Positions 3,054 through 28,381 are shown, counted from the first letter of the stretch. The stretch is 48,364 bases of DNA from Pseudomonadota bacterium (GCA_005797785.1 SYKL01000097.1:1-48364); one strand, 5' to 3'. Numbers and translations: made by a program. Notes: generated from the letters alone by a model not told the origin.

Positions 3054-3070
3054 GGAGGGTTTTGCCTGGA

Positions 3071-3104
3071 GGGTGTGTGGGGCACCCTCCGGATGTCACA
3101 CCCC
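3071..3104 (+). promoter_or_regulatory. island motif copy A: TGTCACACCCC (3094-3104) within the inverted repeat GGGTGTG-N19-CACACCC
   Basis: Lies in the 81-nt gap between the 1662-3053 and 3135-3782 CDSs. GGGTGTG (3071-3077) is the exact complement of CACACCC (3097-3103). The motif starts 41 nt upstream of ATG 3135. Confidence 0.45.
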
Positions 3105-3134
3105 CTTCTGCATGCTGGGGTGGTAGGAGGCGGC

Positions 3135-3782
3135 ATGGGCCAGGAGAAGGAAACCTCGGGCGGTGCAGTAGGATGCTTGATCGTGCTGGTGCTGACGATG
3201 TGCCTTTTGGCGCCGTTGCTGGTGTTGTGCATCGTCGTGGTTTGGCTGGTCGCGGAGTCGTCCGTCCCCGATGTTCGCCTGTGCAGCCGATTGAGTTCGG
3301 GTGAGTATGTGCGTATTAAGCAGATTTTGGATTATCAACTCAGGCGACGTGGGATCTTTGGACGGGCGGTGGACCTCGAAGAGGTGCGGGAGTTGATCTA
3401 CGAGGAATGCGCCACCGAGGGCCTGCGCGAGGCGTTTGAGGGCCCCGCCCAACGGCAGCTGGCCTGGCAATCCGCGTACCGGTGGTTGTGGGGCAGCCGG
3501 GTTGCGGTGGGGACGTGCGTGTTGTTGGGTATTCTCGCAGTTTATTGGGTGAACGAGATCTATCCGTCGATTGCGGAAGTGTATTCGGGACAGGATGCGA
3601 GTACCTGGGTGATAACCCTGGCGGTCTCGGGTCTGTTGTGCTGGTTCGTTGGGTTGATCGGGTGGTTCGTGGGGGCTTTGGTGTATGTTGCCCTGGGCCT
3701 TCGGCAGGGAGTGCCGTTGGAACGGTGGGAGTTGTTGGTGCAGGCGGTGGAGGAGTTTGAGGGGTTGAACACGAAGGTATGA
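3135..3782 (+). CDS. integral membrane protein, about 4 TM helices, unknown function
   Basis: ATG 3135 has AGGAGG at 3125-3130. Hydrophobic segments: CLIVLVLTMCLLAPLLVLCIVVVWLV, VAVGTCVLLGILAVYWV, WVITLAVSGLLCWFVGLIGWFVGALVYVAL. The longer ORF from 3075 would read through the motif. Confidence 0.6.
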   Translation: MGQEKETSGGAVGCLIVLVLTMCLLAPLLVLCIVVVWLVAESSVPDVRLCSRLSSGEYVRIKQILDYQLRRRGIFGRAVDLEEVRELIYEECATEGLREAFEGPAQRQLAWQSAYRWLWGSRVAVGTCVLLGILAVYWVNEIYPSIAEVYSGQDASTWVITLAVSGLLCWFVGLIGWFVGALVYVALGLRQGVPLERWELLVQAVEEFEGLNTKV

Positions 3783-3867
3783 ACATTGCAGGCTTACGGA
3801 GGGCCCATTGGTCTGACACCCCCCTTGCGAAATGAATGGGACACATCCGTTACAATCGAGGAACGCC

Positions 3868-4026
3868 ATGACCCTAAGCGCTTTGCTGCCTCACGTAGCC
3901 GACCCCGATGGAAAAAGGCTCGCCTTTCTGGGCCTGGCCCATGCGATGTCTAAGGCGCGGCAGCCCTGGAGTTTTGGCGTTCCGCAGTACGGGGACCCAA
4001 GCGTTGGCTCCGTCGGTTGTGCATGA
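3868..4026 (+). CDS. small hypothetical protein (52 aa), or the N-terminal part of a frameshifted gene
   Basis: ATG 3868 has GAGGA at 3858-3862. The translation MTLSALLPHVADPDGKRLAFLGLAHAMSK looks protein-like. The stop TGA (4024-4026) overlaps the GTG 4019 start of the next ORF. Confidence 0.35.
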   Translation: MTLSALLPHVADPDGKRLAFLGLAHAMSKARQPWSFGVPQYGDPSVGSVGCA

Positions 4027-4498
4027 ATTTGTTGAGCTCTGCATTGCTGCGCTCGGTCATGTGGCCATCGCCGAGGCCGGGCCGGTTCGCGCCATCAAGT
4101 TTGATTCGCAGCAGAATAAGGAGGTATTTCGCTCTGAATTCACACAGCGGTACGACGACGCTGTCCGCGAGTTGCCGTCACTGGGCGGCATGAACCCATT
4201 CGACTTCTGGCGGATGCGTTGTAGGCCACGCGAAATCACCTGTGTTGACGACCAGGACAAGCATTCCGTGGTGTTTCTAGTGGATATCGACTCGGAATTG
4301 GCAAAGACGCTTTGGCAGGACCATGTTCGGGGGGAAAGCGCGTGGCCCCTGGTCGACCTGGCGCAGTTTCAGGAGGTCGGTCATGCGATGAAGTTACGTA
4401 TCATTGTCGGCAAAGCCAAGGCGCGAGACCGCTACGCAGCGAGGTTAGCAGACTTGCAGAGCGCGTTCGGTATTGTTGAGGATCGCGGGGAACGGTAG
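4019..4498 (+). CDS. hypothetical protein (159 aa from GTG 4019)
   Basis: The frame-2 ORF 3908-4498 has an implausible first 37 aa. The sequence from VHEFVELCIAALGHVAIAE onward looks protein-like. The 8-nt overlap with 3868-4026 suggests either coupling or a frameshift. Confidence 0.4.
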   Translation: MHEFVELCIAALGHVAIAEAGPVRAIKFDSQQNKEVFRSEFTQRYDDAVRELPSLGGMNPFDFWRMRCRPREITCVDDQDKHSVVFLVDIDSELAKTLWQDHVRGESAWPLVDLAQFQEVGHAMKLRIIVGKAKARDRYAARLADLQSAFGIVEDRGER

Positions 4499-4561: not shown

Positions 4562-5596
4562 TTAGTAACGTCGATTGGGGCGCCCGGGGCCGCGCTGGAT
4601 GTCCTCGGCTCGGCCTAAGCTGGCCACCAGGTCTTGGTATTCCCTGTGGGTGTAGGCGCGCTTGTCTCGAAGGCTTCGAGCGATCCACTCCAGGAGCGAA
4701 CGAAACTCAGTAGTTCGTTCGTACATGTCGTTGAAATGCTCCCAATCCAGCGTCGGACGTTGACGCCCCGTGGCGATAACGGTTTTCTTTGCTCCCAGTT
4801 TGTCAAGCAACTTGTCGAATTGAGCTTCGGTGAGACCCTGTTCCTCGTCGAACTCCTCTGCGTGAGGCAGGGCGGCGGCGTCGATCCCGTACGCGACGAT
4901 GGTGACGTCATAGGAAGTGCCGAGTCTTCGTAGCTCTTCGACCAAGGTGGAATCATCCACCGATCCGGCGATCGCTAAAACCGAGTGGTGCGCCCATCGC
5001 GAGTTGCTGACGCACTGAAAGAAATGCTCTCTAAAATTGTTGAATGTGATTGCCACTTTGAGCTCGACACTCGTCAACCGGAAGGGCTGCTCTCCCAAGC
5101 TTCGCCTGACCTCCAAGAGATTGCTATCGAGGAAATAGAGTCCATCGTCGTCCACTTTCCCTACGTCCCACTCGACAAAGACGACATCGGGGAACTTCCA
5201 TTTGTTGACCCCCAGCTGATCGCGCCCTGCCCGGGTGTGATCAATGCGCATCGGGAGTTGGTTGTCCTTGAGCGCTTGTCGCATGTAGAAAGCGCGGAAC
5301 TTTTCTTCAGACTGGGAGCCGATGCCTTTGGGCGCGGAGGACGGGACGCCCTCTGGGATCGGCTCGGGCTCAGGTGCGACCCGGAGGTAGTATCCGTGAC
5401 GGCCGACGGCCTTTGCAATCACGGAGGAACTGTCGGCTGCCATCAGCGAGAAGTGCTGTTGAATACTGGAGTCGGCGTAATCGCTGCCGAGTTGTGGGCG
5501 CACGATCGCGAGGAGTTTGGTGCCGTTGATGGCTTTGCTTGGGTCCGTGGGGAGGACCTGCGGGAGCAAGTGTTTGAGGTGTTCGCGGAGGTTCAT
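4562..5596 (-). CDS. winged-helix (HARE-HTH-like) N-terminal domain + PD-(D/E)xK nuclease-like domain; third gene of the helicase operon
   Basis: ATG 5596-5594 overlaps the upstream stop (ATGA). The N-terminus LREHLKHLL...INGTKLLAIV...GRHGYYLRV is wHTH-like. Candidate catalytic residues are FPD137VVFVEWD and SVE178LK180, followed by FFQCVSNS. Confidence 0.6.
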   Translation of the reverse strand: MNLREHLKHLLPQVLPTDPSKAINGTKLLAIVRPQLGSDYADSSIQQHFSLMAADSSSVIAKAVGRHGYYLRVAPEPEPIPEGVPSSAPKGIGSQSEEKFRAFYMRQALKDNQLPMRIDHTRAGRDQLGVNKWKFPDVVFVEWDVGKVDDDGLYFLDSNLLEVRRSLGEQPFRLTSVELKVAITFNNFREHFFQCVSNSRWAHHSVLAIAGSVDDSTLVEELRRLGTSYDVTIVAYGIDAAALPHAEEFDEEQGLTEAQFDKLLDKLGAKKTVIATGRQRPTLDWEHFNDMYERTTEFRSLLEWIARSLRDKRAYTHREYQDLVASLGRAEDIQRGPGRPNRRY

Positions 5597-8500
5597 CGAC
5601 GCACCAGCCGCAGAGTGATGTGTTCTTCCTCGGTTACGAAGCTCCAATCCATCCACGTGGTGCCATGTGTTCGCCGTACGCCTTGAAGACCGTGGTCGAA
5701 CAATAGGTGCATGCTCGCGTACGTCCCGCCTGTCGCGAATGTGATGTCAAGCCGCCTAGCGTGTGGGAGTTGAGCCCACTTCCCATTCTGCTTTTTCGAC
5801 GTGTCAAGCATGGTCATCTTAATGTCCCAACTTGCACCTGCTTGCTGTTTCGTCCAGCTTAGAAGGGCCTCGGCTTCCTTTTTTGAAAGGTCGCTGGGGG
5901 GTGTGCGGTCGTTCAAAAGTTGTTGGGCGTCGGCCTGAGAATAGTGTTCCGCCCGTGGGAGATGACTGTTGATGTCCACGGCTGCTCCTGGCGCGGGACG
6001 GAATTGCTTCAGAACCTCCGCCAGGCGGAGGAATGACACGATGTTCGTAGCAAAAAAACGGTCCCGATAGGACAGACGCGTCACCGTTCCGAGTGCGTGA
6101 AGAGGGCCCAGGTGACGTTCAAGCACTTTGGAGAGCCTGATGTGCTCGGGCGTGGTTTTTCCCTGGGGCACACTGATCCACTTGGTCGTCTCCGTGGGCG
6201 GTGGGGCCCAGACCTCTTGAGCAACTTCTGCCGCTTGGGACCAGGAGTTGTCATAGGCCTCCCACATCAGCTCCGCATTTACTCCATCCGTACGAATGGT
6301 CGAGAAGGCGCCCGAGCGTTGCCATCCTGAGCCAAATGCCGGCTCGGTCCATGGCTGGTTCTCTGTGTTGACTGAACCAAGCGCGGTATAGCCGTCTACG
6401 GCTCGACGCACGACCCCCCATGGGTAGGATGGCAGTTGGCCAATGCGGATCTTCACCCCGTCTCTCGCCAACGTCGCAAGCTTGGACAGGAGAAGGGCTT
6501 CATCGGTGTCGGTATTCGGAAGGCGACCGAGCAGCAACCTACTTTCTCCTCTTTGCAACAATGCTCGAGAGTGCAGGGCTCGGAGTATGCCTTGGGGTTC
6601 GAAGCCATCCTCGGCCACACAACTGCCGAGAAGGACGATGTCTCCCGGGGCGCTCAGCCAGTCCAAGACGATAGGGCGGGGATTCCGAAGTTCCAGTCTG
6701 CCATCATTAAGGATACCCAAATTGGGCGCCCCAGCGATAAACGCATGAAGGTTCTTTTCTCGAAGGTGCTGTAGCAGTGCTTTTGGACGTAGCCGTTGGT
6801 GGATTTGTTGGGTTTCAAATAAGATGAGCGACCCGTGGTTGGGGCTTTGGAGGTATTCGATGGCGCGTTGCAGAAGCGGCCGCCATTCGTTGCGTAGTCC
6901 CAGCAGAACGCCGGAACATGTTCGATCAAGGATGACGCACTCTTTTGTCGTACCGTTTTCCGTATTGAGGGTGGACACCAAGGGTTGCAGGGTGCGGCTA
7001 TCGACTTGGAGGATCTCCGCTGCAGCCTGTTGCAGTACCACAGCAAAGGTGAGGGCCAGATCCTCCGCGGAGTCCGCTGGAAAAGCTGAATCCTGGGTGA
7101 GCGACAAGCGGAATGCGTCGGTGAGTACCGAGGTTCCCAGGGTCATGTGGCGCCAGAAGCGTGCCCCCATTTGGCAAGGGGTGCCTCGGATGAGGTGCCT
7201 ATGGTTCTGGAATGTGGGGGGGACCTCATCGCCCCAGTTTGGTTCGGCGACGGAGAATCCGCACACTTGGCAGATAGCAAAGCCATATCCCGCGCGCTGA
7301 TTCTTATCGACGAGTCCCTCAGATCGGATCAGGAGCGTCGCCTCCTGCGAAACGCCGACCGTCAAGTCGGGTGACACCTCATCCAGGTCGTCGAATGCAG
7401 CGCCGCTAAGCGTCATTCGCGCCGGGGGCATTCGTGCGGCGTCAGCCTTCTCTCGCACCCGCCTTGGGGACTCTCCAGAGACGACTCTGAAGCCCGTGGG
7501 CTGTAGAAAGTGACGAAGTGGCGTTGGTTGATCTGCAAGATCGATTTCGCCGCCATCCCGTTGAAGTTGCTGTGCCGTCGCCCGCGCCCGAACATAGAAT
7601 GCTTGTGCGTTCTCGGCGGGGTGATGGCACACGGAACATTGGTCGCGATCGGCGTCCGAGACGTCAATGTTCCCGCAACGGCGGCAGTGCAGATAGGTCT
7701 TTCGCGTTGCTAAACCGGGGTCGTTGGCCAACCAGTTCCGAATGAGCCCGCCGATGCGGTGGATGCGTTTCTTAGCGACCACCTCGGCGCCCGGGGTGTA
7801 TTCTGACAACGCGGCGTCGAGGGGGCGTTCCATTCGCAGTTCCTCATCGCCGGTGTCGAGTCGAATGATATCTACCGGAAACCCGAATCGCGGAAGGAAT
7901 CCCGTTCGGGCGAGGTATCGGATCAGAGCCTCCCTCATGATCCGATCCTGCTGAAGTTGTAAGGCATTGAGGTACGCTGTCCGTTGCCCCCCTTGGCCAA
8001 GCGCTTGTTCATTCGCGATTTGGCCCGCCAGACAATCCAGGTCGATGCGTGCGGTGTGTACCGATTCCCGAAGGCTGACCGCGGCACCCCGGAGGACGGC
8101 ATCGCCGGGATGGCTTGCAAGGACGGTTCCGTCCACGAGTTTGCGCAGTGCGGCAAGTAGATCAGGGCTCGGTGTGTCGCACCATTTTTCGAACACTTCC
8201 AGAAGAGATTCTCCAGGGTCCACGGGAGCACCCTGCTGAAGCTGCCCGGCCACAACGGGAGTGAGAAGAGAAGTGATGTCACCGAAGGCGTACATCGGGT
8301 TGCCCCTCGGAGCGCGCGTCACCACCTGTTCAAAAAAGCATGAGAGCAGCCATGCATGGACATGGCGACGCACCAACGGGGCCGCGTCGAGTCGCACTTC
8401 CGGCGGACGAATGGGACGTCGCAGAAATGCTCGCAAGTCCGAAAACACACGTTGGTCGTGAGGCTTTGCGGGCGCCAGGGTCAGCACGAGCGATGAGCCA

Positions 8501-11500
8501 TCGGCGCGCCGGCCGGCTCGACCGGCCCGCTGCCAGTAGTTGGAGGGAGCAGGCGGTACATTCGTCATCAGAACGAATGTGAGGCCACCCAAATCGACGC
8601 CCATTTCCATGGTTGTGGAGGAGGATATGAGATTGCGTTTGCCGTTGCGAAAGGCGTTTTCGTCCTGTTCTAAGGCGTCGACATCGATCTGAGCCGTATG
8701 TTCCACGGACCAGAGGCCAAGCGGTTCGTCGTCCGTGACCCGGCGTACGGCATGCCTCTTTCGCCAGTACTCGACCTCGGAGGTGGTGAGCGGCCTCAAC
8801 GGGGATTCATCGGTGAATTCGGTGGGGATGTTGCGCAGAGAGCGGGAGGCCAGGGCCCTGCTATCGGGGGAGATGAACGCCGGTGTTGCTGGCGCGGTAA
8901 ACTGTAGCGCCCAAGGGTACACTTGAATTCCGCCCTGCCCGCCGCGAACGCACTTTCTGTCGGGCAACCCAGGCCCATTTGCAACTTGGAGGAGGGCCCC
9001 CCAAACGGCCCTGAGCAGCGCAATGGCGTCCCCGTCGTGCATGTCTCCGACCCCGATGACCCGGCGTGCGAAGTTGACCACGGGGTTGCGTTCTAGGTTT
9101 GTGGGGACCAATGAGGGTTCTCCCCGCAGTTCGGGAGCGTCGCCTGGAGAGAAAATGAGTCTCTTCCCGTAGTAGTTGTGGCGTAGCAGCCCCTGCAACT
9201 CCTGGGCATTGATGGTTAGGCTTTGAACGGCCCCCTGGCGGCGCGCGTGGTCGAGAGTCGTGGCGAGTAGACAGTGCCATTCATCGCTGCTGAGGATCCC
9301 CTCGTATGCCGGCGGAACCGAAGGTAGGTTGGGGTAGACTACCTGGACAAGGCCCAGCGTTTCAAGCGTGATATTGCTTGGCGAGGGGAGCCGAGCGAAC
9401 TCCCGAAAAACCGAAACCCTGGCCAGTTCGACTCGTGTATTTTCGTCTGGCGCATTCGCAAAATCCGCTCTTTCTCGGAATTTGGGGTGGCTGTACATCT
9501 GCGCGACAAGGTCCTCGCCGCTAATCCCTGGGTTATCACGAATGATCTGCCACAGGAGCTGTCGATTCAGGCCGACGTCGTGGGTGTACTCGACCTCCGC
9601 CGCCAGGGATGCGGTTCCATGTCGGCTGTCCGAGAACGTAAGCACCCGGCGCCCATCTCCTGGCAATGGCTGTTGGGCAGCCGCGGGGTGAGCGCCGAGG
9701 AAGGGGTAGATCGCATCGATGACGGGTCCGACCACCGCATTGGGCCGAATGGTGAGCGGCTTTAGGTCCGCAGACTCCTCGCCGCAGTGCGTACACCGCG
9801 AAATGGAGTTTGGCTTATTTCCTCCACCGACGGGGATGACTTGCACGTGTCGGGCACCCCAACGCTCCGGCAACTGGGCTTGCCATTCCTGCTCAGCATG
9901 AGGCGCGGTGAGGGGGACCCACTTTTGGCGATACCCTGGAGCCTCGGTGTTCCGAAAGAGGGTACTCTCTCCGAACTCGCCGTCTGTCTTGGTCCAGCAA
10001 CGAAGGTATCCTTCGCCGCATTCGGAACAGGTCAATACTTCGAGGAGGTCTTCGTCGTCTTCCGCGGGAAGACGCGAACTGACCCTTCCCCAGGGCCACG
10101 CCTCGGTGCTTTCGCCGTTCGGGCGAGCGTCCACCCACATTCCCGCTGGAGTGCGCAGAATTGCGTGCATTCGCATGGCGAGAAAGGGGTGCTCCGACGC
10201 ATCCATGCGTGCCAAGCTGCAGAGCCGAAGAATCCGATCGGCGCAGATGCGTTCCTCTTCGCCGATTGATTGGGTGCCGAACAGCCATGCTGCAATTTCA
10301 TCCAAGGATTTGAGCCGGCCTTGGCGCTCCTCGTCGAACAACCAGCGGCGGAAATGCACCAATCGAGGGGTCGAACGGACAGCGTGAGCCAGTATCTTGG
10401 CGGGTTGACCTTCACTGGCCAACTGGACGCACTGTTCTGGCGAGAGGAGGCCGCACGCCTGGAGGATCGTCCGGAGTTCATCCGCCATCGGAGGGTCGAC
10501 CACCAAGCCTTGAGGCTCGCCGTCCGGCCCGAGATCCAGCGTTCGCAACGCTGCCGGAATCTCAAAGGCGGTGGGGTCCAGTGGGGGATTCGTTGCAGGG
10601 AGGGGCAGTTCGGGCAGGTAGGGCGTGCCGACGATCGCCGTGACCTGGTCGTCCGACTTGGCGAACATCGATCTGGCAAGCGTCTTTAGAGCGGGTCCAT
10701 TTTCGGCGCCTAAGGTAGCGGACGTCGCAAACCCTTGAACTCTTGACAGCGAAGTCTTGAAACGATCGGCGGTCCGGCGCAACAACATGTGAATTTCCGC
10801 TGCCTGAGAGCCCGCATACACATGCGCTTCGTCCAGGACCATCACCTTGAGGCGTGGAGTGTTTTTAAAGAAGAGATACTCGTCATTGAAAATGGTCCGA
10901 TCGATCGGACGGATCAGCATGTACTCCAACATGGAGAAGTTGGTGATCAGAATGTGCGGCGGTCCATTGGGGCGCCCCGCATCTTGACTGAGGCCACGCA
11001 GTGTCACTCGATCGATGATTTGGCTAGGTTCAGGCTGCCGGCCTTGTGCAATCAATGCACTTCTTGCGGCGGTGTAGTTTTCTTTTAATCGGCCGGTGTA
11101 GTAGGCGAAAGTGAGCCGCTGTTGCCCGCGGAGCAAACGAATGACGCGATCGACCTGGTTGTTTACCAGGGCGTTCAGGGGGTAGATGATGATGGCGCGG
11201 ATGCCAGGTTCGGCCAAATTGTCCAGACCGTTTTCTTCGTCCCAGAACAACCGGTCCAGAAGCGGAATGAGAAATGCCTCTGTTTTCCCAGAGCCGGTGC
11301 CGGCGGACAGGATCACGGTATTTCCAGTGGCAGCAGCGCTGACGGCGGCCACCTGGTGTTCGTACAGAGCGCGAGTGAACCCCGCTGCTTGCATCAGTGC
11401 CACCGTTTTGGGGTGCAACGGCCTGCTCTCGGACGAACGTAGTGGCTCTCCCACTGCCTCCAGGTTGGCCGCATCGCGAGCGGGTTTGTAGGGCCAAGCG

Positions 11501-11676
11501 CCTTGGACGATCGGTGGCGCAAACAGTCGTTCGGGGTCGTCGCCGCTGCTGGTCCAGTTTTGCAACAAACGGTCCGCCAGCAGTCCCGGCGGAATACGGA
11601 AGGCGTCGAGCAAATAAGACGCGTGTTTTTTGCGAAGTTCGGTGCATGCCGCTAAGGCGTCGAATTGGTAGTTCAT
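5593..11676 (-). CDS. very large DEAD/DEAH-box helicase with C-terminal DUF1998/MrfA-type Zn-binding domain (DruE-like, Druantia-type)
   Basis: Motif I AGTGSGKTEAF (11281-11310). Motif II DEAH (10822-10833). Motif III TSAT. Motif IV-like LTFSDSRHG. Motif V STTMEMGVDLG. Motif VI YWQRAGRAGRR. Zn motif CRRCGN..CSVCHH at about 7620-7690, then CQVCGF. Start placed at ATG 11676, which overlaps the upstream stop (ATGA). The 103-codon extension in the ORF track overlaps the upstream gene. Confidence 0.88.
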   Translation of the reverse strand: MNYQFDALAACTELRKKHASYLLDAFRIPPGLLADRLLQNWTSSGDDPERLFAPPIVQGAWPYKPARDAANLEAVGEPLRSSESRPLHPKTVALMQAAGFTRALYEHQVAAVSAAATGNTVILSAGTGSGKTEAFLIPLLDRLFWDEENGLDNLAEPGIRAIIIYPLNALVNNQVDRVIRLLRGQQRLTFAYYTGRLKENYTAARSALIAQGRQPEPSQIIDRVTLRGLSQDAGRPNGPPHILITNFSMLEYMLIRPIDRTIFNDEYLFFKNTPRLKVMVLDEAHVYAGSQAAEIHMLLRRTADRFKTSLSRVQGFATSATLGAENGPALKTLARSMFAKSDDQVTAIVGTPYLPELPLPATNPPLDPTAFEIPAALRTLDLGPDGEPQGLVVDPPMADELRTILQACGLLSPEQCVQLASEGQPAKILAHAVRSTPRLVHFRRWLFDEERQGRLKSLDEIAAWLFGTQSIGEEERICADRILRLCSLARMDASEHPFLAMRMHAILRTPAGMWVDARPNGESTEAWPWGRVSSRLPAEDDEDLLEVLTCSECGEGYLRCWTKTDGEFGESTLFRNTEAPGYRQKWVPLTAPHAEQEWQAQLPERWGARHVQVIPVGGGNKPNSISRCTHCGEESADLKPLTIRPNAVVGPVIDAIYPFLGAHPAAAQQPLPGDGRRVLTFSDSRHGTASLAAEVEYTHDVGLNRQLLWQIIRDNPGISGEDLVAQMYSHPKFRERADFANAPDENTRVELARVSVFREFARLPSPSNITLETLGLVQVVYPNLPSVPPAYEGILSSDEWHCLLATTLDHARRQGAVQSLTINAQELQGLLRHNYYGKRLIFSPGDAPELRGEPSLVPTNLERNPVVNFARRVIGVGDMHDGDAIALLRAVWGALLQVANGPGLPDRKCVRGGQGGIQVYPWALQFTAPATPAFISPDSRALASRSLRNIPTEFTDESPLRPLTTSEVEYWRKRHAVRRVTDDEPLGLWSVEHTAQIDVDALEQDENAFRNGKRNLISSSTTMEMGVDLGGLTFVLMTNVPPAPSNYWQRAGRAGRRADGSSLVLTLAPAKPHDQRVFSDLRAFLRRPIRPPEVRLDAAPLVRRHVHAWLLSCFFEQVVTRAPRGNPMYAFGDITSLLTPVVAGQLQQGAPVDPGESLLEVFEKWCDTPSPDLLAALRKLVDGTVLASHPGDAVLRGAAVSLRESVHTARIDLDCLAGQIANEQALGQGGQRTAYLNALQLQQDRIMREALIRYLARTGFLPRFGFPVDIIRLDTGDEELRMERPLDAALSEYTPGAEVVAKKRIHRIGGLIRNWLANDPGLATRKTYLHCRRCGNIDVSDADRDQCSVCHHPAENAQAFYVRARATAQQLQRDGGEIDLADQPTPLRHFLQPTGFRVVSGESPRRVREKADAARMPPARMTLSGAAFDDLDEVSPDLTVGVSQEATLLIRSEGLVDKNQRAGYGFAICQVCGFSVAEPNWGDEVPPTFQNHRHLIRGTPCQMGARFWRHMTLGTSVLTDAFRLSLTQDSAFPADSAEDLALTFAVVLQQAAAEILQVDSRTLQPLVSTLNTENGTTKECVILDRTCSGVLLGLRNEWRPLLQRAIEYLQSPNHGSLILFETQQIHQRLRPKALLQHLREKNLHAFIAGAPNLGILNDGRLELRNPRPIVLDWLSAPGDIVLLGSCVAEDGFEPQGILRALHSRALLQRGESRLLLGRLPNTDTDEALLLSKLATLARDGVKIRIGQLPSYPWGVVRRAVDGYTALGSVNTENQPWTEPAFGSGWQRSGAFSTIRTDGVNAELMWEAYDNSWSQAAEVAQEVWAPPPTETTKWISVPQGKTTPEHIRLSKVLERHLGPLHALGTVTRLSYRDRFFATNIVSFLRLAEVLKQFRPAPGAAVDINSHLPRAEHYSQADAQQLLNDRTPPSDLSKKEAEALLSWTKQQAGASWDIKMTMLDTSKKQNGKWAQLPHARRLDITFATGGTYASMHLLFDHGLQGVRRTHGTTWMDWSFVTEEEHITLRLVRR

Positions 11677-14600
11677 GCGCGATCCTGTACGGCGTGGCGG
11701 TTGATCCAAAAGGCGGAAAGTGTAGGAAATCGTTTCATCAGGTGGTTGATCTGTCGGTACTGTTGGGGAAGGAGCGTGAGAGCCCCTTTGCGCCAGTAGT
11801 GGAGCGTCTTCATGGCGCCTGCAACCTCCACCTCGATCCGAAACAGGTGTTGAGGTATGGGGGGGTCGTGACGCAAACCCAGCTCCTGGAAGGCAGCCTG
11901 TTGGTCCGCTTGGGTCGGCTGAACCGATCGCGGAGGGCCGGATTGCCATTCTGTGGTTTCCACCTCGGTCAATGCGCGGTACCATAGGCTTCGTCTGTTG
12001 CCTTGAAGTCCTACGACGTACAAAGCATCGATTTCAGTGCGGGGCAAATCAACCACGTGGTACTCAGGTGGCGGTTGTTCGTTGCGCATCTGCGCCATCA
12101 TGGATTGGAATCCACCCTTCTGGCGGATGAACAAGATCCGACTTCGCTGCTCGGCGGTTGCGATTTGCTCTAGTTCCCGGTACCTCAACCACCACCACCG
12201 AGGACCGTTTTTGTCTCGGTTCAGCCAGGCTAGGCGTTGCTCGTCTTCAACTGCGCCTTCCAAATGCAGACGAAATCTGAGCGCGTTCAGTGCGCCTGCG
12301 GTTTCGGCGCTGTCACGCATTCGCCGAAAGGGGTTTGCGTCTTTTGGCCAGACGTCGCCATCTTCCACCATCCGGTCGAGGAGTCCGCGGAACAAGTCGA
12401 TATCGTCCAAGATGTCGTCATGGGGTATTGGTGCATCACGGAGGGTGGGAACGGGTGTCAAACCCGTGAGCGGAACGTTCGGTCGCCGATTTTCGACAAG
12501 GCGCGCATAGTATGGCCCATTTTGAGGCAACCTGGCCTCGAACCACGCGTCGGCCAAGGGGCGGACATCGAGAAGTTGGGCGACCTCCCAAGGGCGCGAC
12601 ATGGAGATGACCTTCATTTGCACGATCCCGGGGGCGCCTCGTCGTCGAATTCGCAGTATGTCTCCGTCGAGCTCGTATTCTGGAGGAGTCCGTGTTTCAT
12701 CGATGAACGGACCCAGCGTCTGCGACGCGTTGGGCCATGAGATCTCGATGGACAATTCCAGTTCCCGCGAATTCGTCGCAAAGAGGTTTGAAAAGGGTAC
12801 AAAGATAGACCCGTTTCTTCGGATGGCGGCGCGGATCTCCCGTTCTCCACACTTTGCGCTGATCGCACTCGACGGCGGCCCGTACACGCGGATCCCGCCC
12901 GCGCCGCGTAGGAGTTTCATGTCCATTGGTGAGTCAGGGGTTGGGCCGGCCAGTTCGACTTCGTCTGAGTTGGTCTGAAGTCTTGCAATGGATGGACATG
13001 CAAACAAGCGCCATGTGCCAACTAAGTTTGGGTGGTGCTCGATCTCGACATCCACGGTTTGAAACCCAACCACATCGGTCGGCAGTTGGATTTCGTTATG
13101 TGCGGTCCTGTGCTCGTGGCGAAAGCGTACAGATCCTTGGCCGCTCGCCGTCAATGTGGTTCCACCGGCATGGGAGCGGTGCGAGAGAGCGACGAACTGC
13201 GGTGGCAATAGAACAAACCGCGCCGATCCGCGCTTTTGATCGCTCGTCAAGTCGATTCGGTATATCCCGGGGATAGAAGGTGGTTCGAGCACCAACCGAC
13301 CGCCTCGCAGGTGGGTCTGGGGGATGTCGATTTTGAAATCGCCGGGACACACGAGAGTGCCCCAGACCTGGTCTGCTCCGAAGACCGATATGAAGGGTAA
13401 CCGGTGGTAAACACGACAGCCTCCCAACGAGAGGCCTTGTATTCGATGAATGTGCTCATCCAACGCGATTCGGAGCTTCTGCTCTGGTGGGGCTAGGCAA
13501 AGACCGTCACCAATCTCCACCGACGCGCCCGGCATCGGCCCCATCCAAGCACCGAGCTTCCCCTGAAGGCGGGAAAAACCGGTGGGAGGTGCGATCTCAA
13601 CCCCCGGTTCGGCGACGAGAACGACGGTCCGATGGGGGGCAGGTGCCTTCACCACGGTGAGTGTTGTTGCGTCAAAGAGCGCAAACCCCGTTCCTGGGAA
13701 GGGGTGTTCGGTATCGATTTCTACCCGCTCCACGCCCGCTCGAGCGATCGCCACGAGCGTCGCTGGAGTTCGATCCACCGGTAGCAAGGCGGCCGAGTCC
13801 AGATCGCGCACCAAAACGTCATCCTTCAGGACGTAGATGGCGTGGTGGGTTCCGCCGTGTACCCCCACCTTCACCCGATCTGCGCCGGGTGGGAATAAGG
13901 AAGCGGGAAGTTGTTCTGGGGCGCGGAGGGCGAGGCACATTCTTGCGAAGTCCCAGCACCAAGGAAGGTCGAACCCAGTGGGTTCGCCGCTCACCTCGCG
14001 GCCCGGACGGCAAAGGATGGCGTCGATCAGCTTCCGTTGGAGTTCGGTATTTTCAATGTCGAACGCGTCGTGAAGACCACGCCTCCTGATTTCGTGCAGC
14101 GTCTCCTCAGCTGTCGCGCGCGCCGCGCCTTCTTGAAGAGCCCACCGGCGCGTCAATGCGATGTGCTGCAGGTGTTTCGCCACGGCTTGTCGAGTCTCGG
14201 CTTCGGACAGCGAGCGATAACGTCCCTCGGTTGGTAAGAGGTCGGCGATGTCGCGATATTCTGACCGCTCCAGGAACGACCAGCCTCCTAATTCTGTGGC
14301 CTTTTCAGCGAGTTCGACGACCAGTGAGTCCGTCGCCCCCGAGTGCAGAAACATGGTTTCCTGAAATAGCCGGCCCTGGCCACCTTGAAGTAACGAGATG
14401 TTCCACCACCATTTGATGTTTCGGTCGATGGCGTCGCGGACAGTGGTTTGTGCAAGGCTGGTACGGATATCAAAGCTTCCCGGCAAGCCGCAGTCTCGAC
14501 CGAGCCATCGGTGGATCTCGTCGTAGGTCCATGTTGAGTCGGCGCCGACCTCTTTGAAGGCGAGCACTCCGGCAAGGAAAAAGGCTGCCCCCCACGCGCC

Positions 14601-15002
14601 CTTGTCCTCGGTTCCGTTTGAAACTCCCCGTAGCACTTCGTGGCGAAGCAGGTTCTTCTGTTCCTCGTTGAGCGCTACACGGCCGAGCAGGTGGCCGCGC
14701 AAACACTGAGTGCGGACGTGCTGCAAGAGATCGAGGACGGAGTTTCCTGCAGGCGGGCTTTCGCTGGGGGTGGACGTTGCGACGCTGGAGCCCTCGTGAA
14801 GACTGAGCGTTGCGGCGCTCGAACTCGCACCGGACTCGTAGGGAGCGTGGTCAGGTTCAGGGGCGTTTTGGATGAGGTCGATGATGGCCTGCTCAAGGGT
14901 TCGCCGTCCGCGAATCTGATGGAGTTTTTCCAGGGTTGTTGCTGAAAGGAGCAAACTCAAAGGCGCTGATTCGCCTGCCAGCTTATGCCCGGGTTGTGTC
15001 AT
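11673..15002 (-). CDS. large protein of unknown function (1109 aa), in the DruH-like position upstream of the DruE-like helicase; possible N-terminal ribbon-helix-helix
   Basis: ATG 15002 with AGGAAC upstream. Long uninterrupted ORF with normal composition and no motif I recognise. The N-terminus LSLLLSATTLEKLHQIRGRRTLEQAIIDLIQ has an RHH-like pattern. Its stop overlaps the helicase start. Confidence 0.7.
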   Translation of the reverse strand: MTQPGHKLAGESAPLSLLLSATTLEKLHQIRGRRTLEQAIIDLIQNAPEPDHAPYESGASSSAATLSLHEGSSVATSTPSESPPAGNSVLDLLQHVRTQCLRGHLLGRVALNEEQKNLLRHEVLRGVSNGTEDKGAWGAAFFLAGVLAFKEVGADSTWTYDEIHRWLGRDCGLPGSFDIRTSLAQTTVRDAIDRNIKWWWNISLLQGGQGRLFQETMFLHSGATDSLVVELAEKATELGGWSFLERSEYRDIADLLPTEGRYRSLSEAETRQAVAKHLQHIALTRRWALQEGAARATAEETLHEIRRRGLHDAFDIENTELQRKLIDAILCRPGREVSGEPTGFDLPWCWDFARMCLALRAPEQLPASLFPPGADRVKVGVHGGTHHAIYVLKDDVLVRDLDSAALLPVDRTPATLVAIARAGVERVEIDTEHPFPGTGFALFDATTLTVVKAPAPHRTVVLVAEPGVEIAPPTGFSRLQGKLGAWMGPMPGASVEIGDGLCLAPPEQKLRIALDEHIHRIQGLSLGGCRVYHRLPFISVFGADQVWGTLVCPGDFKIDIPQTHLRGGRLVLEPPSIPGIYRIDLTSDQKRGSARFVLLPPQFVALSHRSHAGGTTLTASGQGSVRFRHEHRTAHNEIQLPTDVVGFQTVDVEIEHHPNLVGTWRLFACPSIARLQTNSDEVELAGPTPDSPMDMKLLRGAGGIRVYGPPSSAISAKCGEREIRAAIRRNGSIFVPFSNLFATNSRELELSIEISWPNASQTLGPFIDETRTPPEYELDGDILRIRRRGAPGIVQMKVISMSRPWEVAQLLDVRPLADAWFEARLPQNGPYYARLVENRRPNVPLTGLTPVPTLRDAPIPHDDILDDIDLFRGLLDRMVEDGDVWPKDANPFRRMRDSAETAGALNALRFRLHLEGAVEDEQRLAWLNRDKNGPRWWWLRYRELEQIATAEQRSRILFIRQKGGFQSMMAQMRNEQPPPEYHVVDLPRTEIDALYVVGLQGNRRSLWYRALTEVETTEWQSGPPRSVQPTQADQQAAFQELGLRHDPPIPQHLFRIEVEVAGAMKTLHYWRKGALTLLPQQYRQINHLMKRFPTLSAFWINRHAVQDRA

Positions 15003-15245: not shown

Positions 15246-16019
15246 TCAGCACCCCAACCACACCCTCCAAAACTCCCCTCCATCCCTCCACCTTCGCATA
15301 GGGTCCACCTGCAGCGCCCCCACCATCGCCCGCTGCCAGGCGATCCGAAGGTCCGACACCCAATGTCTCGGATCGGTGAGTTCCCCCGCTTGCTTCCTCC
15401 GTACTTGGACAGGATCCTTCCCGTCGAACGGGCGCCTTCCGCACACCAGCTCGTACAGGAGAACTCCCACCGAAAACACATCCTCCCGCGGATCCACCGC
15501 TTCAAATGCCAACCGTTCGGGCGCTAAGTATCCCGGAGTGCCGCGGGTCAGCCGCGCCCGCCCGTCGGCTCCGATCGGCTTGGCCGAACTGAAATTCGCG
15601 AGCTTGGCGACCGTGCCTTGGAACACCAGCAGGCTCTGCGGGCGCAGGTTTCGGTGCACCCAACCCTGCTCGTGCAAGTACGCCACGCCCGCCAACAGGC
15701 CACCGGCAAGCGCTGCAATGTCGCGGCTGGGATCTCCCAGAACGTCCGCGAGACTACACATTTCTCCACCCTCCAGGATGAGCCCGCTGCGCCCTTCGAC
15801 ATCCACAACATCCGTCACCGCCTCGATGTGGGGATGGCGAAATTGCGCTTGAACTTTCCCTTCTTGAACGAGCGCGGCCCGAGCGGCTTTGGACGCCGAT
15901 GCGGCCAGTTTGAGTCGGTGCGCCGTACCCAACTGCACGTGGCGGCAAGGGACAACTGCCGCGTCCAAGTCACCCTCAACCGCATACCGATGATCATCGG
16001 TGTAGCAGTAAATTGGCAT
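15246..16019 (-). CDS. Hanks-type Ser/Thr protein kinase-like protein, predicted pseudokinase
   Basis: HRNLRPQSLL stands in for HRDLKPxN (Asn codon at 15648-15650). ANFSS stands in for DFG (15594-15596). GTPGYLAPE and DVFSVGVLLYELVCGRRPF are conserved. No Gly-rich loop. Start chosen at ATG 16019, because the longer ORF to 16166 would cover the divergent promoter. Confidence 0.7.
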   Translation of the reverse strand: MPIYCYTDDHRYAVEGDLDAAVVPCRHVQLGTAHRLKLAASASKAARAALVQEGKVQAQFRHPHIEAVTDVVDVEGRSGLILEGGEMCSLADVLGDPSRDIAALAGGLLAGVAYLHEQGWVHRNLRPQSLLVFQGTVAKLANFSSAKPIGADGRARLTRGTPGYLAPERLAFEAVDPREDVFSVGVLLYELVCGRRPFDGKDPVQVRRKQAGELTDPRHWVSDLRIAWQRAMVGALQVDPMRRWRDGGEFWRVWLGC

Positions 16020-16063
16020 GGCACCCCCTGCTTCCCTTGTGAGACGCGCGCTTCTCAGCCCGC

Positions 16064-16099
16064 CGGACAGTCGGTGTTCATTTCCGGAAGGACTGTCCG
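16064..16099. promoter_or_regulatory. 9-bp inverted repeat CGGACAGTC-N18-GACTGTCCG in the divergent intergenic region
   Basis: Lies between the pseudokinase start (16019, minus) and the start of the secreted protein (16152, plus). The inner part contains the palindrome TTCCGGAA (16082-16089). Confidence 0.3.
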
Positions 16100-16151
16100 C
16101 CCGCAGCCCCTGCTGGCGTCTCCTTACGGTACCCTCGATCTGGGAGTGATC

Positions 16152-16871
16152 ATGCAAACCATCCATCGTGTGGGAACAGGATCGAGCTCAGTCCGACGAG
16201 CGTTCCTTGGAATTGGCCTCATCGTGGCGATGGTCGCAGCCACCTTGGACAACGCACGGGCCGAACCCGCCCCGCCCGAGTGTGCGGACTTCGCTGCGGT
16301 GGAGCGCCCCGCGATGCTCGGCAAACTGAGCGACGCCGAGGTCCAATGCTTGGAATGGAGGTACGGTCATTTTGACCTCCCCACACACCGCGACAAAGCA
16401 TCCCGAATCTTGATGGCCAACGCCTACGGCAAGGGCGACATGCCCGAGTGGAAACGCCTCACGATGCGGCATATCGACGAAGTGGACGATTCGGATCCAA
16501 ACCTAAGTTTCAAACTGGCGCAGGTGTTTGCGAGGGAGGAGGAGCATGCTCCCACCGAGGTGATTCGTTGGTCCACGCTTTCGTTGCTGCACCGCGGCGC
16601 TTGGGATCCGGACGACTACACGTCGCGCGTGCCACAATTGCATGCGATGCGGGTGAAGAGTGCAAAGCAGATTTGGGAACAAGCAACGGCGGCGCACAAG
16701 AAAACTCCCACCCCAACGACCGAAGCGGCCGAACAGAGTTCCGCCGCCAGCGTGAGGGAGTTCAGCCGTGAGTGGGTATTGCATTGCAAACGAGCCCATA
16801 GTGATGCAAAGGAACCGCTGGCGATCTGCCGTTCGGCCGGAGGAGGCGCAGATTATTGCAATGGTGTATAG
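16152..16871 (+). CDS. secreted hypothetical protein (signal peptide, helical)
   Basis: ATG 16152 is in frame with ORF 15618-16871. The N-terminus RRAFLGIGLIVAMVAATLDNARA is signal-like. The upstream part of the ORF is antisense to the kinase gene. Confidence 0.55.
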   Translation: MQTIHRVGTGSSSVRRAFLGIGLIVAMVAATLDNARAEPAPPECADFAAVERPAMLGKLSDAEVQCLEWRYGHFDLPTHRDKASRILMANAYGKGDMPEWKRLTMRHIDEVDDSDPNLSFKLAQVFAREEEHAPTEVIRWSTLSLLHRGAWDPDDYTSRVPQLHAMRVKSAKQIWEQATAAHKKTPTPTTEAAEQSSAASVREFSREWVLHCKRAHSDAKEPLAICRSAGGGADYCNGV

Positions 16872-16903
16872 GGGATCGATACCTTGTTCGTAGGGAAGCG
16901 TCG

Positions 16904-17770
16904 ATGCTGAAGTTATTGCCGTGCGTTGACTCCGATGCCCACGCGGAGGCCCGCCGAAGCGAATTGCAGATCTCCCACCACCGCGCCGCAGCCCTCGGTC
17001 GGTCGGCAGTGGCGGCGGCAAACGATGGGTACTACCTGAACGCTTCCGGTCAAACGGTGGAGTTACACGAACTTTTGGAAGAGGCGCGCACCTCCGTGCG
17101 ATCCTTGGGACCAGAGGATCCGCTGCCCGGCTTCGTTCGGCCGCGGCATGCCCAGACGTCCGTTCAAGTCTGCAACGAAACCACCCTCGGTGCGTCGCGG
17201 CGGTGGGTGAACGAAGGGCGTCGACCGCTCGCTTTGAACTTCGCCAATGGGCAGGAACCGGGCGGTGGATTGTTCCACGGGGCGTTGGCGCAGGAGGAGG
17301 CGCTGTGCCGTTCCAGTGCGCTGTATCTGACGTTGGCCGAGGATCCGATGTACGAAGCGCACCAAGACCGGCCAGAGTCCAGCGATTGGGCGATCCTCTC
17401 CCCCCAGGTTCCGGTATTTCGCGACGATAAAGGAAACCCGCTCGATCCGCCTTGGCAGTTGTGTTTTCTCACCTGTGCTGCGCCCTTTGTGCCCAATGTG
17501 GGCCAGCCGACCTCGGGGGATCTCCTGCAGAAGCGCATTCACCGCGTGTTGGCGATCGCGCAAGCCTTTGGCTACGACGATCTCGTGTTGGGCGCTTGGG
17601 GATGTGGCGCATTTGAAAACGATCCGCACCGAACGGCGGCCGACTTTCGCCAAGCCTTGGAAACGGACTTTCGAGGTGCGTTCGCTAACATCGTATTCGC
17701 CATTGCCGATTGGTCGCCGGAGCGTAGGTTTCTGGCTCCGTTTCGCGACGTGTTTTCGCACCCACAATAG
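16904..17770 (+). CDS. TIGR02452-family macrodomain protein (microbial PARG-like, putative ADP-ribose hydrolase)
   Basis: LALNFANGQEPGGGLFHGALAQEEALCRSSALY and LVLGAWGCGAFENDP match the family signature as I remember it. Confidence 0.75.
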   Translation: MLKLLPCVDSDAHAEARRSELQISHHRAAALGRSAVAAANDGYYLNASGQTVELHELLEEARTSVRSLGPEDPLPGFVRPRHAQTSVQVCNETTLGASRRWVNEGRRPLALNFANGQEPGGGLFHGALAQEEALCRSSALYLTLAEDPMYEAHQDRPESSDWAILSPQVPVFRDDKGNPLDPPWQLCFLTCAAPFVPNVGQPTSGDLLQKRIHRVLAIAQAFGYDDLVLGAWGCGAFENDPHRTAADFRQALETDFRGAFANIVFAIADWSPERRFLAPFRDVFSHPQ

Positions 17771-17772
17771 GG

Positions 17773-28366: not shown

Positions 28367-28381
28367 TTCCTCCTTACATGC

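What the first reader, a model, noticed from the sequence alone, without database searches (positions are those of the whole stretch)
4562..15002. Druantia type III-like operon extended by a third, nuclease-like gene; all three genes are translationally coupled
Seen in the sequence: three minus-strand ORFs of 1109, 2027 and 344 aa are joined by two ATGA stop/start overlaps (11673-11676 and 5593-5596), so they form one coupled unit. The middle protein has every SF2 DEAD/DEAH motif plus a Cys4 DUF1998/MrfA-type module.

Established knowledge: a roughly 2000-aa helicase with DUF1998 is the hallmark DruE protein of Druantia. Type III Druantia pairs it with one large uncharacterised upstream protein, DruH.

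Inference: the 1109-aa protein is a DruH analogue. The extra wHTH + PD-(D/E)xK gene is, as far as I know, not part of the described druHE pair. It could be the missing effector or sensor of a new Druantia subtype.
Basis: partly seen in the sequence, partly recalled or inferred. Interest (0 to 1): 0.75.

Follow-up and report, generated by a model that had tools for sequence, protein, structure and literature searches.

The report
Druantia III pair plus HrgA-like nuclease
The locus is a real but divergent two-gene Druantia type III anti-phage system (DruH + DruE) with an HrgA-family nuclease-like gene attached to its end; that attachment is seen in no other genome examined, so it is a local add-on and not a new Druantia subtype.

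Summary
Three minus-strand genes of 1109, 2027 and 344 aa are joined by ATGA overlaps at 11673-11676 and 5593-5596.

- **Gene 2** is a DruE3-class helicase (PADLOC 1.4e-201). It has all SF2 motifs, conserved Cys clusters and the C-terminal PLD-like motifs.
- **Gene 1** matches no DruH HMM in PADLOC and not NCBIfam NF038336. Its 13-member family nevertheless aligns to canonical DruH by profile-profile comparison (98.7%, E 2e-16, 838 columns). It has the DruH fold layout (alpha, Ig-like repeats, alpha). In six unrelated contigs a helicase gene directly follows it: full-length DruE-class in five, cut by the contig end in the sixth.
- **Gene 3** is a wHTH + PD-(D/E)xK protein with D137, E178 and K180 invariant. 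It is a distant member of the HrgA/COG2958 superfamily.

Gene 3's relatives stand alone in variable regions, or sit at the end of type I R-M operons. None of 55 genome loci, nor five further contigs, has DruE or DruH nearby. None of the five closest DruH-DruE loci has a third gene.

Best reading: a canonical DruHE system in a tRNA-Arg defence island, with a co-transcribed, lineage-specific HrgA-like nuclease that is probably autonomous or auxiliary.

The parts
11673..15002 (-). druH-like gene (1109 aa): a divergent DruH. Predicted layout: disordered N-terminus (1-86), alpha-helical domain (85-330), all-beta Ig-like repeat region (348-851), C-terminal alpha-helical domain (860-1109).
   Evidence: No hit in the PADLOC DruH models, NCBIfam NF038336 or PDB sequences. 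Exhaustive phmmer finds only 13 relatives of about 1100 aa. hhalign of that family against the canonical DruH family gives 98.7%, E 2.1e-16, 838 columns. AF2 layout. Foldseek hits to six-Ig chains such as contactin and titin. Relatives lie directly upstream of the helicase gene in L065, L066, L085, L086, L089 and L090.
5593..11676 (-). druE gene (2027 aa): SF2/YprA-type helicase with Zn-binding Cys clusters and two C-terminal PLD-like domains, i.e. a type III-A-like architecture.
   Evidence: PADLOC DruE3 PDLC00037, E 1.4e-201. PDB 9tu7 (E. coli DruE), E 2.3e-82. Motif positions. It is 39-42% identical to the DruE of the five related loci and 26% to E. coli DruE. The 'Y.DR(Y/F)' (SYRDRFF) and 'H.R.L' (PHARRL) PLD-pocket motifs are conserved.
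4562..5596 (-). HrgA/COG2958-superfamily gene (344 aa): N-terminal winged helix (1-72), linker, PD-(D/E)xK-type core (96-235; E97/E98/K99, P136-D137, E178-x-K180, Q194), C-terminal helical domain.
   Evidence: At least 155 homologues. Invariant residues. AF2 pLDDT 86.7 with an alpha-beta-beta-beta-alpha-beta order. Weak Foldseek hits are enriched in restriction-endonuclease folds. BLASTP to the Vibrio 'HrgA protein' gives E 2e-19, and hhalign to Helicobacter HrgA gives 98.7%.
11673..11676 (-). ATGA stop/start overlap between druH and druE.
   Evidence: Sequence read. Tight druH/druE junctions are also seen in relatives: L085, L090 and E. coli L084.
5593..5596 (-). ATGA stop/start overlap between druE and the HrgA-like gene; seen only in this lineage.
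   Evidence: Sequence read. The same junction is present in five assemblies of this sequence and absent from all related loci.

Best explanation
The unit is a genuine but sequence-divergent type III Druantia pair, druH-druE, inside a tRNA-Arg/integrase defence island. A third gene of the HrgA/COG2958 superfamily has become attached to its 3' end in this lineage.

Mechanism of the pair (inferred by homology to the P. aeruginosa and E. coli systems): DruH, built from an N-terminal helical domain, Ig-like repeats and a C-terminal helical domain, engages and trims 3' ends at forked or single-stranded phage DNA. It then recruits the DruE helicase. DruE unwinds 3'-to-5' and degrades DNA through its C-terminal PLD-like pocket.

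The third protein has a winged-helix DNA-binding head and an intact PD-(D/E)xK catalytic signature. It is most likely a DNA endonuclease that is expressed from the same transcript (ATGA coupling) but works on its own or as a dispensable auxiliary. Its relatives elsewhere are stand-alone genes, or tail genes of type I R-M operons.

Shown here: gene structure, DruE identity, DruH remote homology and fold layout, HrgA-superfamily homology, and lack of conserved linkage.

Inferred only: all biochemical activities, co-transcription and anti-phage function.
For: - DruE3 match, E 1.4e-201.
- E. coli DruE structure match, E 2.3e-82.
- Helicase motifs, Zn clusters and PLD-pocket motifs conserved.
- Gene-1 family against canonical DruH: hhalign 98.7%, E 2e-16.
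- AF2 layout alpha / all-beta 348-851 / alpha, and Foldseek hits to six-Ig chains. [quoted passage not shown]
- A helicase gene directly follows gene-1 relatives in six unrelated contigs: full-length (2104-2141 aa) in five, cut by the contig end in L085.
- Gene-3 family: invariant PD...ExK signature, confident model, homology to annotated HrgA proteins.
- None of the 55 genome loci of gene-3 relatives has DruE or DruH nearby. Five further contigs carrying four of the closest relatives also lack them, and several sit next to transposases.
- In the close subfamily, upstream gaps are mostly 100 nt or more, which suggests monocistronic genes.
- Distant relatives sit at the end of type I R-M operons.
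- Island context.
Against: - The ATGA overlap and the absence of any intergenic space argue that gene 3 is expressed with druE. That is what one would expect of a functional partner.
- All copies of the three-gene arrangement are identical in sequence, so conservation of the junction cannot be assessed within the lineage.
- Only five complete loci of the closest DruHE clade were available, and broad Druantia III diversity was not surveyed for HrgA-like neighbours.
- Foldseek support for the PD-(D/E)xK fold is weak: best PDB E 0.03, best viral E 4e-4 to an uncharacterised protein.
- The residues reported as essential in PaDruH (R22, K28, E64) could not be mapped. In the hhalign alignment, the invariant E75 of the E. 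coli-type family faces a non-acidic residue in gene 1.
- No experiment supports any activity.
Confidence: 0.7

Rival explanations
1. One reading: a new three-component Druantia subtype, in which the wHTH + PD-(D/E)xK protein is an obligate sensor or effector working with DruH and DruE.
For: Translational coupling by ATGA, same strand and no intergenic space. Intact catalytic signature. Gene 1 lacks an obvious counterpart of the conserved N-terminal acidic residue of canonical DruH, so an extra nuclease could compensate. The gene-2 C-terminus is 15-45 aa shorter than in its closest relatives.
Against: No co-occurrence in 55 genome loci of gene-3 relatives or in five further contigs. The five closest complete DruH-DruE loci are two-gene units followed by convergent or unrelated genes, yet they carry the same divergent DruH type, so that type does not need gene 3. 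DruE keeps its PLD-pocket motifs. The two-gene systems are sufficient for defence in E. coli, P. aeruginosa and M. smegmatis (10.64898/2026.05.12.722862; 10.64898/2026.05.13.724313; PMC13316683).
Confidence: 0.12
2. HrgA-like proteins are general plug-in tail nucleases for defence systems based on a DNA translocase. They serve HsdR in type I R-M and DruE here, acting on DNA that the motor has engaged. The linkage in this window would then be functional although evolutionarily young.
For: Distant relatives lie directly after hsdR or within hsd operons in several Bacteroidota genomes (L041, L042, L046, L028). A Vibrio plasmid has hsdR-sprT-hrgA. L061 has a relative 150 nt after a giant SF1 helicase gene pair. 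A Helicobacter plasmid has hrgA 16 nt after two large ORFs.
Against: In gene 3's own subfamily (41-57% identity) almost all members are isolated genes with no conserved neighbour. The R-M association concerns a different subfamily with a HARE-HTH head. There are no interaction data. Co-location in defence islands is expected by chance.
Confidence: 0.15
3. Gene 3 is a transcriptional regulator or an inactive nuclease-fold DNA binder that controls the island or operon, not an enzyme.
For: It has an N-terminal winged helix. Defence islands often carry wHTH regulators, and this island has two WYL proteins.
Against: The full PD...ExK signature, the helix-1 acidic pair and Q194 are invariant across the 28 aligned sequences of gene 3's own subfamily, and the PD, ELK and FFQ..SNS motifs recur in the distant HrgA clade. 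Inactive derivatives usually do not keep these. Its position at the 3' end of the operon is atypical for a regulator.
Confidence: 0.08
4. The large helicase is a housekeeping MrfA/Lhr-type repair helicase and the locus is not a defence system.
For: It shares the YprA/MrfA helicase core (PDB 6znp, E 6e-13).
Against: DruE3 models score 671 bits against 49.5 bits for YprA. The protein is 2027 aa with DruE-specific domains. It is paired with a DruH homologue. It lies in an integrase/tRNA defence island with GmrSD, a LmuB-like ATPase and a PD-T4-6-like kinase.
Confidence: 0.02

Closest known systems
Druantia type III (DruH-DruE), III-A architecture (E. coli ATCC 8739/EDL933, P. aeruginosa, M. smegmatis systems)
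   Same: A helicase of about 2000 aa of the YprA/MrfA type, with Zn clusters and two C-terminal PLD-like domains. A partner of about 1100 aa directly upstream, with a tight or overlapping junction. The partner has the alpha / Ig-like repeats / alpha layout. The locus sits in a defence island on an integrated element.
   Different: DruE is only 26% identical to E. coli DruE. DruH is undetectable with the PADLOC and NCBIfam (NF038336) models and is linked only by profile-profile comparison. It carries an extra disordered N-terminal 86 aa. A third gene is translationally coupled downstream.
HrgA / COG2958 family (name taken from annotated records). From my own knowledge, not checked here: hrgA was described as the gene that replaces hpyIIIR next to the hpyIIIM methyltransferase in Helicobacter pylori.
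   Same: A homologous core of about 200 aa with the motifs W.(F/H/Y)PD, S(F/V)E(L/V)K and FFQ(C/A)(V/I)SNS.WA. An N-terminal winged-helix-type head. Size of 300-345 aa. Occurrence in R-M or defence contexts.
   Different: Only 24-30% identity. The head of gene 3 is not recognised as HARE-HTH by Pfam. Its subfamily is mostly stand-alone, not inside R-M operons. The biochemical function of HrgA itself is unknown.
Type IV (modification-dependent) restriction endonucleases built as a winged helix plus nuclease (Mrr, DpnI-like PD-(D/E)XK-wH enzymes; PMC11037411)
   Same: A single polypeptide combining a wH reader and a PD-(D/E)xK cleavage domain. A solitary gene in defence islands. E. coli mrr also lies next to hsdR.
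   Different: No sequence similarity to EcoKMrr. The domain order differs from DpnI-type enzymes. Modification dependence is untested.
Druantia types I, II and IV, and ARMADA/DISARM (multi-gene systems built on a YprA-type helicase)
   Same: A DruE-like helicase combined with additional accessory genes in one operon.
   Different: Their accessory genes (DruA-D, DruM/F/G, Arm and Drm proteins) are conserved partners and are unrelated to gene 3. The gene-2 helicase scores best with the type III models.

Membership tests
Druantia type III | DruE: a large YprA/MrfA-type SF2 helicase of the DruE3 class | tested here: met
   PADLOC PDLC00037 DruE3|DruE, E 1.4e-201, 671 bits. PDB 9tu7, E 2.3e-82. Motifs and Zn clusters conserved.
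Druantia type III | DruH recognised by the family models (PADLOC DruH, NCBIfam NF038336 STY4851/ECs_5259) | tested here: not met
   No hit, even at E 10 for gene 1 and at E 1 for its 12 relatives. E. coli DruH scores 979 bits on NF038336 in the same run.
Druantia type III | DruH homology by more sensitive means, plus the DruH fold layout | tested here: met
   hhalign A3 against A4: 98.7%, E 2.1e-16, 838 columns. AF2 layout alpha 85-330, beta 348-851, alpha 860-1109. Foldseek hits to six-Ig chains. This matches the cryo-EM description read. The solved DruH (9TUD) did not come up in the sequence or fold searches; whether it is in those libraries was not checked, so no direct structural superposition was made.
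Druantia type III | druH immediately upstream of druE, conserved as a pair | tested here: met
   ATGA overlap in the window. The same order is seen in L065, L066, L085, L086-88, L089 and L090.
Druantia type III | Two-gene composition | tested here: not met
   A third coupled gene is present in the window. The closest relatives are two-gene units.
Druantia type III | C-terminal PLD-like nuclease pocket in DruE (type III-A) | tested here: inconclusive
   The Y.DR(Y/F) and H.R.L motifs and two conserved His residues (H1637, H1972) align with E. coli DruE. P. aeruginosa residue numbers could not be mapped directly, and there is no structure model of gene 2.
Druantia type III | Protection against phage | not testable with these tools
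   Needs cloning and phage challenge.
HrgA / COG2958 superfamily | Sequence homology to proteins annotated as HrgA or COG2958 | tested here: met
   tblastn against plasmids hits 'HrgA protein' and 'COG2958 family protein' genes. BLASTP E 2e-19. hhalign 98.7%.
HrgA / COG2958 superfamily | N-terminal HARE-HTH domain (PF05066) | tested here: inconclusive
   Pfam finds HARE-HTH in three distant relatives (E 3e-15 to 8e-10) but not in gene 3 or its close relatives. AF2 predicts a winged helix at residues 1-72.
PD-(D/E)xK nuclease superfamily | Catalytic signature (acidic residue in helix 1, PD, (D/E)xK) on an alpha-beta-beta-beta-alpha-beta core | tested here: met
   E97/E98, P136-D137 and E178-L-K180 are invariant. 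Predicted order: H96-110, E114-117, E138-143, E172-180, H188-198, E204-209.
PD-(D/E)xK nuclease superfamily | Significant structural match to a solved member | tested here: inconclusive
   Best PDB matches are MspJI, HindIII, BspD6I, EcoT38I, MUS81 and XPF at E 0.03-0.8, with none at or below 0.001. Viral matches include RecE, VRR-NUC and REase models at E above 0.1.
Mrr-type type IV restriction enzymes | Homology to the Mrr catalytic domain or Mrr_N | tested here: not met
   hhalign A1 against EcoKMrr gives probability 0.1. There is no Pfam Mrr_cat or Mrr_N hit.
Mrr-type type IV restriction enzymes | Cleavage dependent on DNA modification | not testable with these tools
   Needs expression in methylation-proficient and methylation-deficient hosts, and in vitro cleavage assays.

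The most novel reading that the evidence does not exclude
HrgA-like wHTH + PD-(D/E)xK proteins may be modular tail-end nucleases that plug into defence machines built on a DNA translocase. They would serve type I R-M HsdR in some lineages and, in this lineage, Druantia III DruE. The window would then hold a functional three-component Druantia variant, in which the HrgA-like protein adds a DNA-reading or second cleavage step.
Probability: 0.15. Interest if true: 0.6.

Novelty: new member of a known kind. Interest (0 to 1): 0.33.

Why it matters
There are three practical points.

1. A DruH subfamily of 13 cluster representatives (in a library of 1.84 billion proteins) is invisible to the PADLOC and NCBIfam models, although it is homologous to DruH and paired with DruE3. 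These annotation models therefore do not recognise the DruH half of the pair, and tools that require a DruH hit would be expected to miss or mislabel such systems. The profile built here links them.

2. The third gene gives a context to the poorly understood HrgA/COG2958 superfamily. It has a strictly conserved PD...ExK signature and a winged-helix head. It rides alone in variable regions or at the end of R-M operons, and here at the end of a Druantia operon. That makes it a cheap candidate for testing as a stand-alone or accessory restriction-type nuclease.

3. The case is a caution. Translational coupling inside a defence island is not by itself evidence that a gene belongs to the neighbouring system. 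Comparative linkage refuted the 'new subtype' reading.

Tried and rejected
- **Direct family assignment of gene 1.** PADLOC (also at E 10), Pfam, NCBIfam, PDB phmmer, PDB hmmsearch with the family profile, and hhalign of the profile against the single E. coli DruH sequence all gave nothing. Only profile against profile worked.
- **Pfam as a test for DruH.** This is uninformative. Canonical DruH proteins carry precomputed PF27205/PF27201, but E. coli DruH gets no hit in the local Pfam copy.
- **Word-indexed homologue search for gene 1.** It found only the query itself. The exhaustive search was needed.
- **Conserved neighbours of gene-3 relatives.** The two small 'conserved' clusters were antisense ORFs inside the gene itself.
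- **'DruE lacks a nuclease (III-B-like), so gene 3 supplies it.'** Rejected, because the C-terminal PLD-like motifs are present.
- **Mrr membership.** Rejected.
- **Promoter, terminator and hairpin scans.** Scans around the druE/gene-3 junction, upstream of gene 1 and after gene 3 were uninformative.
- **Composition.** GC and GC3 gave no sign of recent acquisition.
- **Second att copy of the tRNA-Arg.** Not found in the window.
- **Phage genomes.** No gene-3 homologue.
- **Literature on hrgA.** Searches on hrgA timed out five times, as did one on HARE-HTH with other terms, and Aravind & Iyer 2012 is not held. Statements about H. pylori hrgA therefore rest on my own knowledge.

Full report
**1. 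Observation**

The three minus-strand ORFs exist as described. They are 11673-15002 (1109 aa), 5593-11676 (2027 aa from the ATG at 11676) and 4562-5596 (344 aa from the ATG at 5596). Both junctions read ATGA. Gene callers on five public assemblies of the same sequence give the same three products. The N-termini of 27 homologues align to the ATG at 5596 and not to the upstream GTG.

In gene 2, I located Walker A (GTGSGKT, K131), DEAH 282-285, SAT and motif VI (QRAGRAGR). I also located three Cys/His clusters that are conserved in seven DruE sequences, including E. coli. Pfam reports only DEAD and Helicase_C.

**2. The helicase is DruE**

PADLOC gives DruE3 at E 1.4e-201, well ahead of DruE1, DruE2, DruE4, BrxH, Dpd and Drm models. 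The best solved relative is the E. coli DruE cryo-EM chain 9tu7 (E 2.3e-82). B. subtilis YprA/MrfA scores only 49.5 bits. This rejects the repair-helicase alternative.

I aligned gene 2 with E. coli DruE (taken from a Zorya II-Druantia III-ARMADA II plasmid) and with five closer relatives. The C-terminal region is present, with the conserved motifs Y.DR(Y/F) and H.R.L. These correspond to the D1917-R1918-Y1919 and H1999-x-R2001 pocket residues reported for P. aeruginosa DruE (10.64898/2026.05.13.724313). Gene 2 therefore has the III-A-type architecture and is not a nuclease-less III-B-type DruE as described by Bell et al. (10.1101/2025.09.15.676423).

**3. The 1109-aa protein is a divergent DruH**

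No family model recognises it:
- PADLOC, including at E 10.
- NCBIfam, whose NF038336 'STY4851/ECs_5259 family' scores 979 bits on E. coli DruH in the same run.
- PDB sequences.

The word-indexed search of 5.8 billion clusters found only the protein itself. An exhaustive phmmer run over 1.84 billion representatives found 13 relatives. Most are about 1100 aa, and identity is 26-36%.

In every contig I could read, such a relative lies directly upstream of a helicase gene. In L065, L066, L086-88, L089 and L090 that helicase is full-length (2104-2141 aa), and tblastn or alignment shows it to be 38-42% identical to gene 2. L066's helicase was also scored by PADLOC as DruE3 (E 3.7e-212). In L085 the helicase gene is cut by the contig end.

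A profile of this family against a profile of canonical DruH proteins (built) gives hhalign probability 98.7%, E 2.1e-16, over 838 columns. The two families share an R.F..T(L/M)..(C/H)(E/S)GG motif.

The AF2 model (pLDDT 69) has a disordered N-terminus, a helical domain at 85-330, an all-beta region at 348-851 and a helical domain at 860-1109. Foldseek returns chains of six tandem Ig domains, including contactin, titin and NCAM. This is the layout, and these are the fold-search hits, published for the DruH cryo-EM structure.

One caveat applies. The invariant N-terminal acidic residue of the E. coli-type family (E75) aligns to a non-acidic position in gene 1. I could not map the P. aeruginosa catalytic residues.

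**4. The third gene**

It has at least 155 homologues of 330-345 aa, all annotated as hypothetical. They occur in Myxococcota, Bradyrhizobium, Zoogloea, Acidobacteriota, Verrucomicrobiota and others. Across 28 aligned sequences the following are invariant: E97, E98, K99, H120, P136, D137, E178, K180 and Q194, plus the block FFQCVSNS.WAH.

The AF2 model is confident (pLDDT 86.7). It shows a winged helix at 1-72 and a core with the order helix, strand, strand (starting at PD), strand (ExK), helix, strand. That is the PD-(D/E)xK arrangement. Foldseek finds no strong match, but the weak hits are mostly restriction-endonuclease folds such as MspJI, HindIII, BspD6I, EcoT38I, MUS81 and XPF, together with wHTH regulators. 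The viral library behaves similarly.

tblastn against annotated plasmids shows that the family is a distant branch of proteins annotated 'HrgA protein' or 'COG2958 family protein'. BLASTP to a Vibrio HrgA gives E 2e-19, and hhalign to a Helicobacter HrgA gives 98.7%. Distant relatives in Bacteroidota and Planctomycetota carry a Pfam HARE-HTH head. There is no similarity to EcoKMrr.

**5. Is the three-gene linkage conserved? No**

From the side of gene 3:
- I fetched 55 genome loci with up to 10 kb of flank. None contains a relative of gene 1 or gene 2.
- Among the 25 close relatives (34-54% identity), 17 have at least 3 kb of upstream sequence.
- There is no conserved neighbour at all.
- Upstream gaps are mostly 100 nt or more.
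- Four of the closest relatives from metagenomes or genomes, on five contigs, are also isolated. They lie next to transposases, a TIR protein, an Eco29kI R-M system or a giant SF1 helicase.
- The distant HARE-HTH branch sits in type I R-M operons, directly after hsdR in L041 and L042, and as hsdR-sprT-hrgA on a Vibrio plasmid.

From the side of DruE:
- The five closest complete DruH-DruE loci end after druE. The next genes are convergent or unrelated.
- None of 19 metagenomic DruE-like loci has a gene-3 homologue.

**6. Context**

The unit lies in a defence island next to tRNA-Arg (33232-33304) and a tyrosine integrase. The island also carries:
- two WYL proteins;
- a GmrSD + DUF4268 protein;
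- a LmuB-like SMC ATPase;
- an RNase_H_2 + SF1 helicase;
- a microbial PARG;
- a PD-T4-6-like Ser/Thr kinase.

In such islands, independent systems are packed tightly.

**7. Mechanism**

By homology, DruH processes 3' ends at forked or single-stranded phage DNA and recruits DruE. DruE then unwinds 3'-to-5' and degrades DNA (10.64898/2026.05.13.724313; 10.64898/2026.05.13.724758; 10.64898/2026.05.12.722862).

The HrgA-like protein is most likely a DNA endonuclease guided by its winged helix. wH/HARE-HTH-nuclease fusions are known, or proposed, as modification-reading type IV enzymes (PMC11037411). It is co-translated with DruE here, but nothing indicates that Druantia needs it. I put about 0.7 on this composite reading, 0.12 on an obligate three-component system and 0.15 on a more general 'plug-in tail nuclease' role.

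**8. Novelty and score**

The DruHE pair is a new, divergent member of a known kind. The DruH subfamily that escapes current HMMs is a useful annotation point. The third gene belongs to a named but uncharacterised superfamily, and its coupling is a single-lineage event. Interest is modest (0.33). The most novel surviving reading is the plug-in nuclease idea.

Noticed in passing
window 15246-33304: An integrated defence island next to tRNA-Arg(CCT) (33232-33304, -) and a tyrosine integrase (31477-32709, -). It carries two WYL proteins (28507-30410), GmrSD_N/C + DUF4268 (25974-28337), an SMC_N/LmuB-like ATPase (23483-25936) with a 301-aa partner (22059-22964), an RNase_H_2 + AAA_11/12 helicase with a MkoA-like C-terminus (18522-22004), a microbial PARG (16856-17770, +) and a PD-T4-6/mad6-like Ser/Thr kinase (15246-16166). 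No second copy of the tRNA 3' end was found in the window.
   Followed up: partly
window 28-4498 (+ strand): A block of about six co-directional genes (products about 196, 215, 463, 266, 270 and 227 aa in the public gene calls) converges on the HrgA-like gene. Of these, the 196-, 215/235-, 463/511- and 266/278-aa products were scanned against Pfam and the first three also against PADLOC, with no hit; the precomputed Pfam table also lists none for any of the six. It could be more island cargo of unknown function.
   Followed up: no
L085 1605-5341; L090 2560-6162: In two unrelated contigs, the divergent DruH-DruE pair lies next to dynamin-like/MMR_HSR1 GTPase genes. In L090 there is also a Cas_APE2256 protein. 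This may be a recurrent neighbour of the DruHE clade.
   Followed up: no
L086 3448-4359 (also L087, L088): In one relative, a 303-aa gene with no Pfam hit ends 13 nt before the druH-like gene on the same strand. This is a different candidate extra gene, sitting at the 5' end of the pair.
   Followed up: no
L041, L042, L046, L028; L096 5919-7633: HARE-HTH-headed relatives of the third gene sit at the end of type I R-M operons. They lie directly after hsdR in Chryseobacterium and Kaistella, and as hsdR-SprT-like protease-HrgA on a conjugative Vibrio alginolyticus plasmid.
   Followed up: partly
window 5593-5680 (C-terminus of gene 2): The DruE C-terminus is 15-45 residues shorter than in its four closest relatives, although E. 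coli DruE is also short. The druE/HrgA-like junction may be a secondary recombination joint that replaced the original 3' end.
   Followed up: partly
window 14745-15002 (gene 1 residues 1-86): The first 86 residues of the DruH-like protein are predicted disordered (pLDDT below 50) and are Ser/Pro/Ala-rich. They fall outside every phmmer match to a relative (those start at query residues 90-143) and outside the hhalign match to canonical DruH.
   Followed up: no
L094 8566-10675 (Corallococcus interemptor CP102579.1): One of the closest relatives of the third gene is truncated to 224 aa, directly downstream of a DDE transposase gene. This fits the idea that the family lives in mobile, decaying regions.
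   Followed up: no
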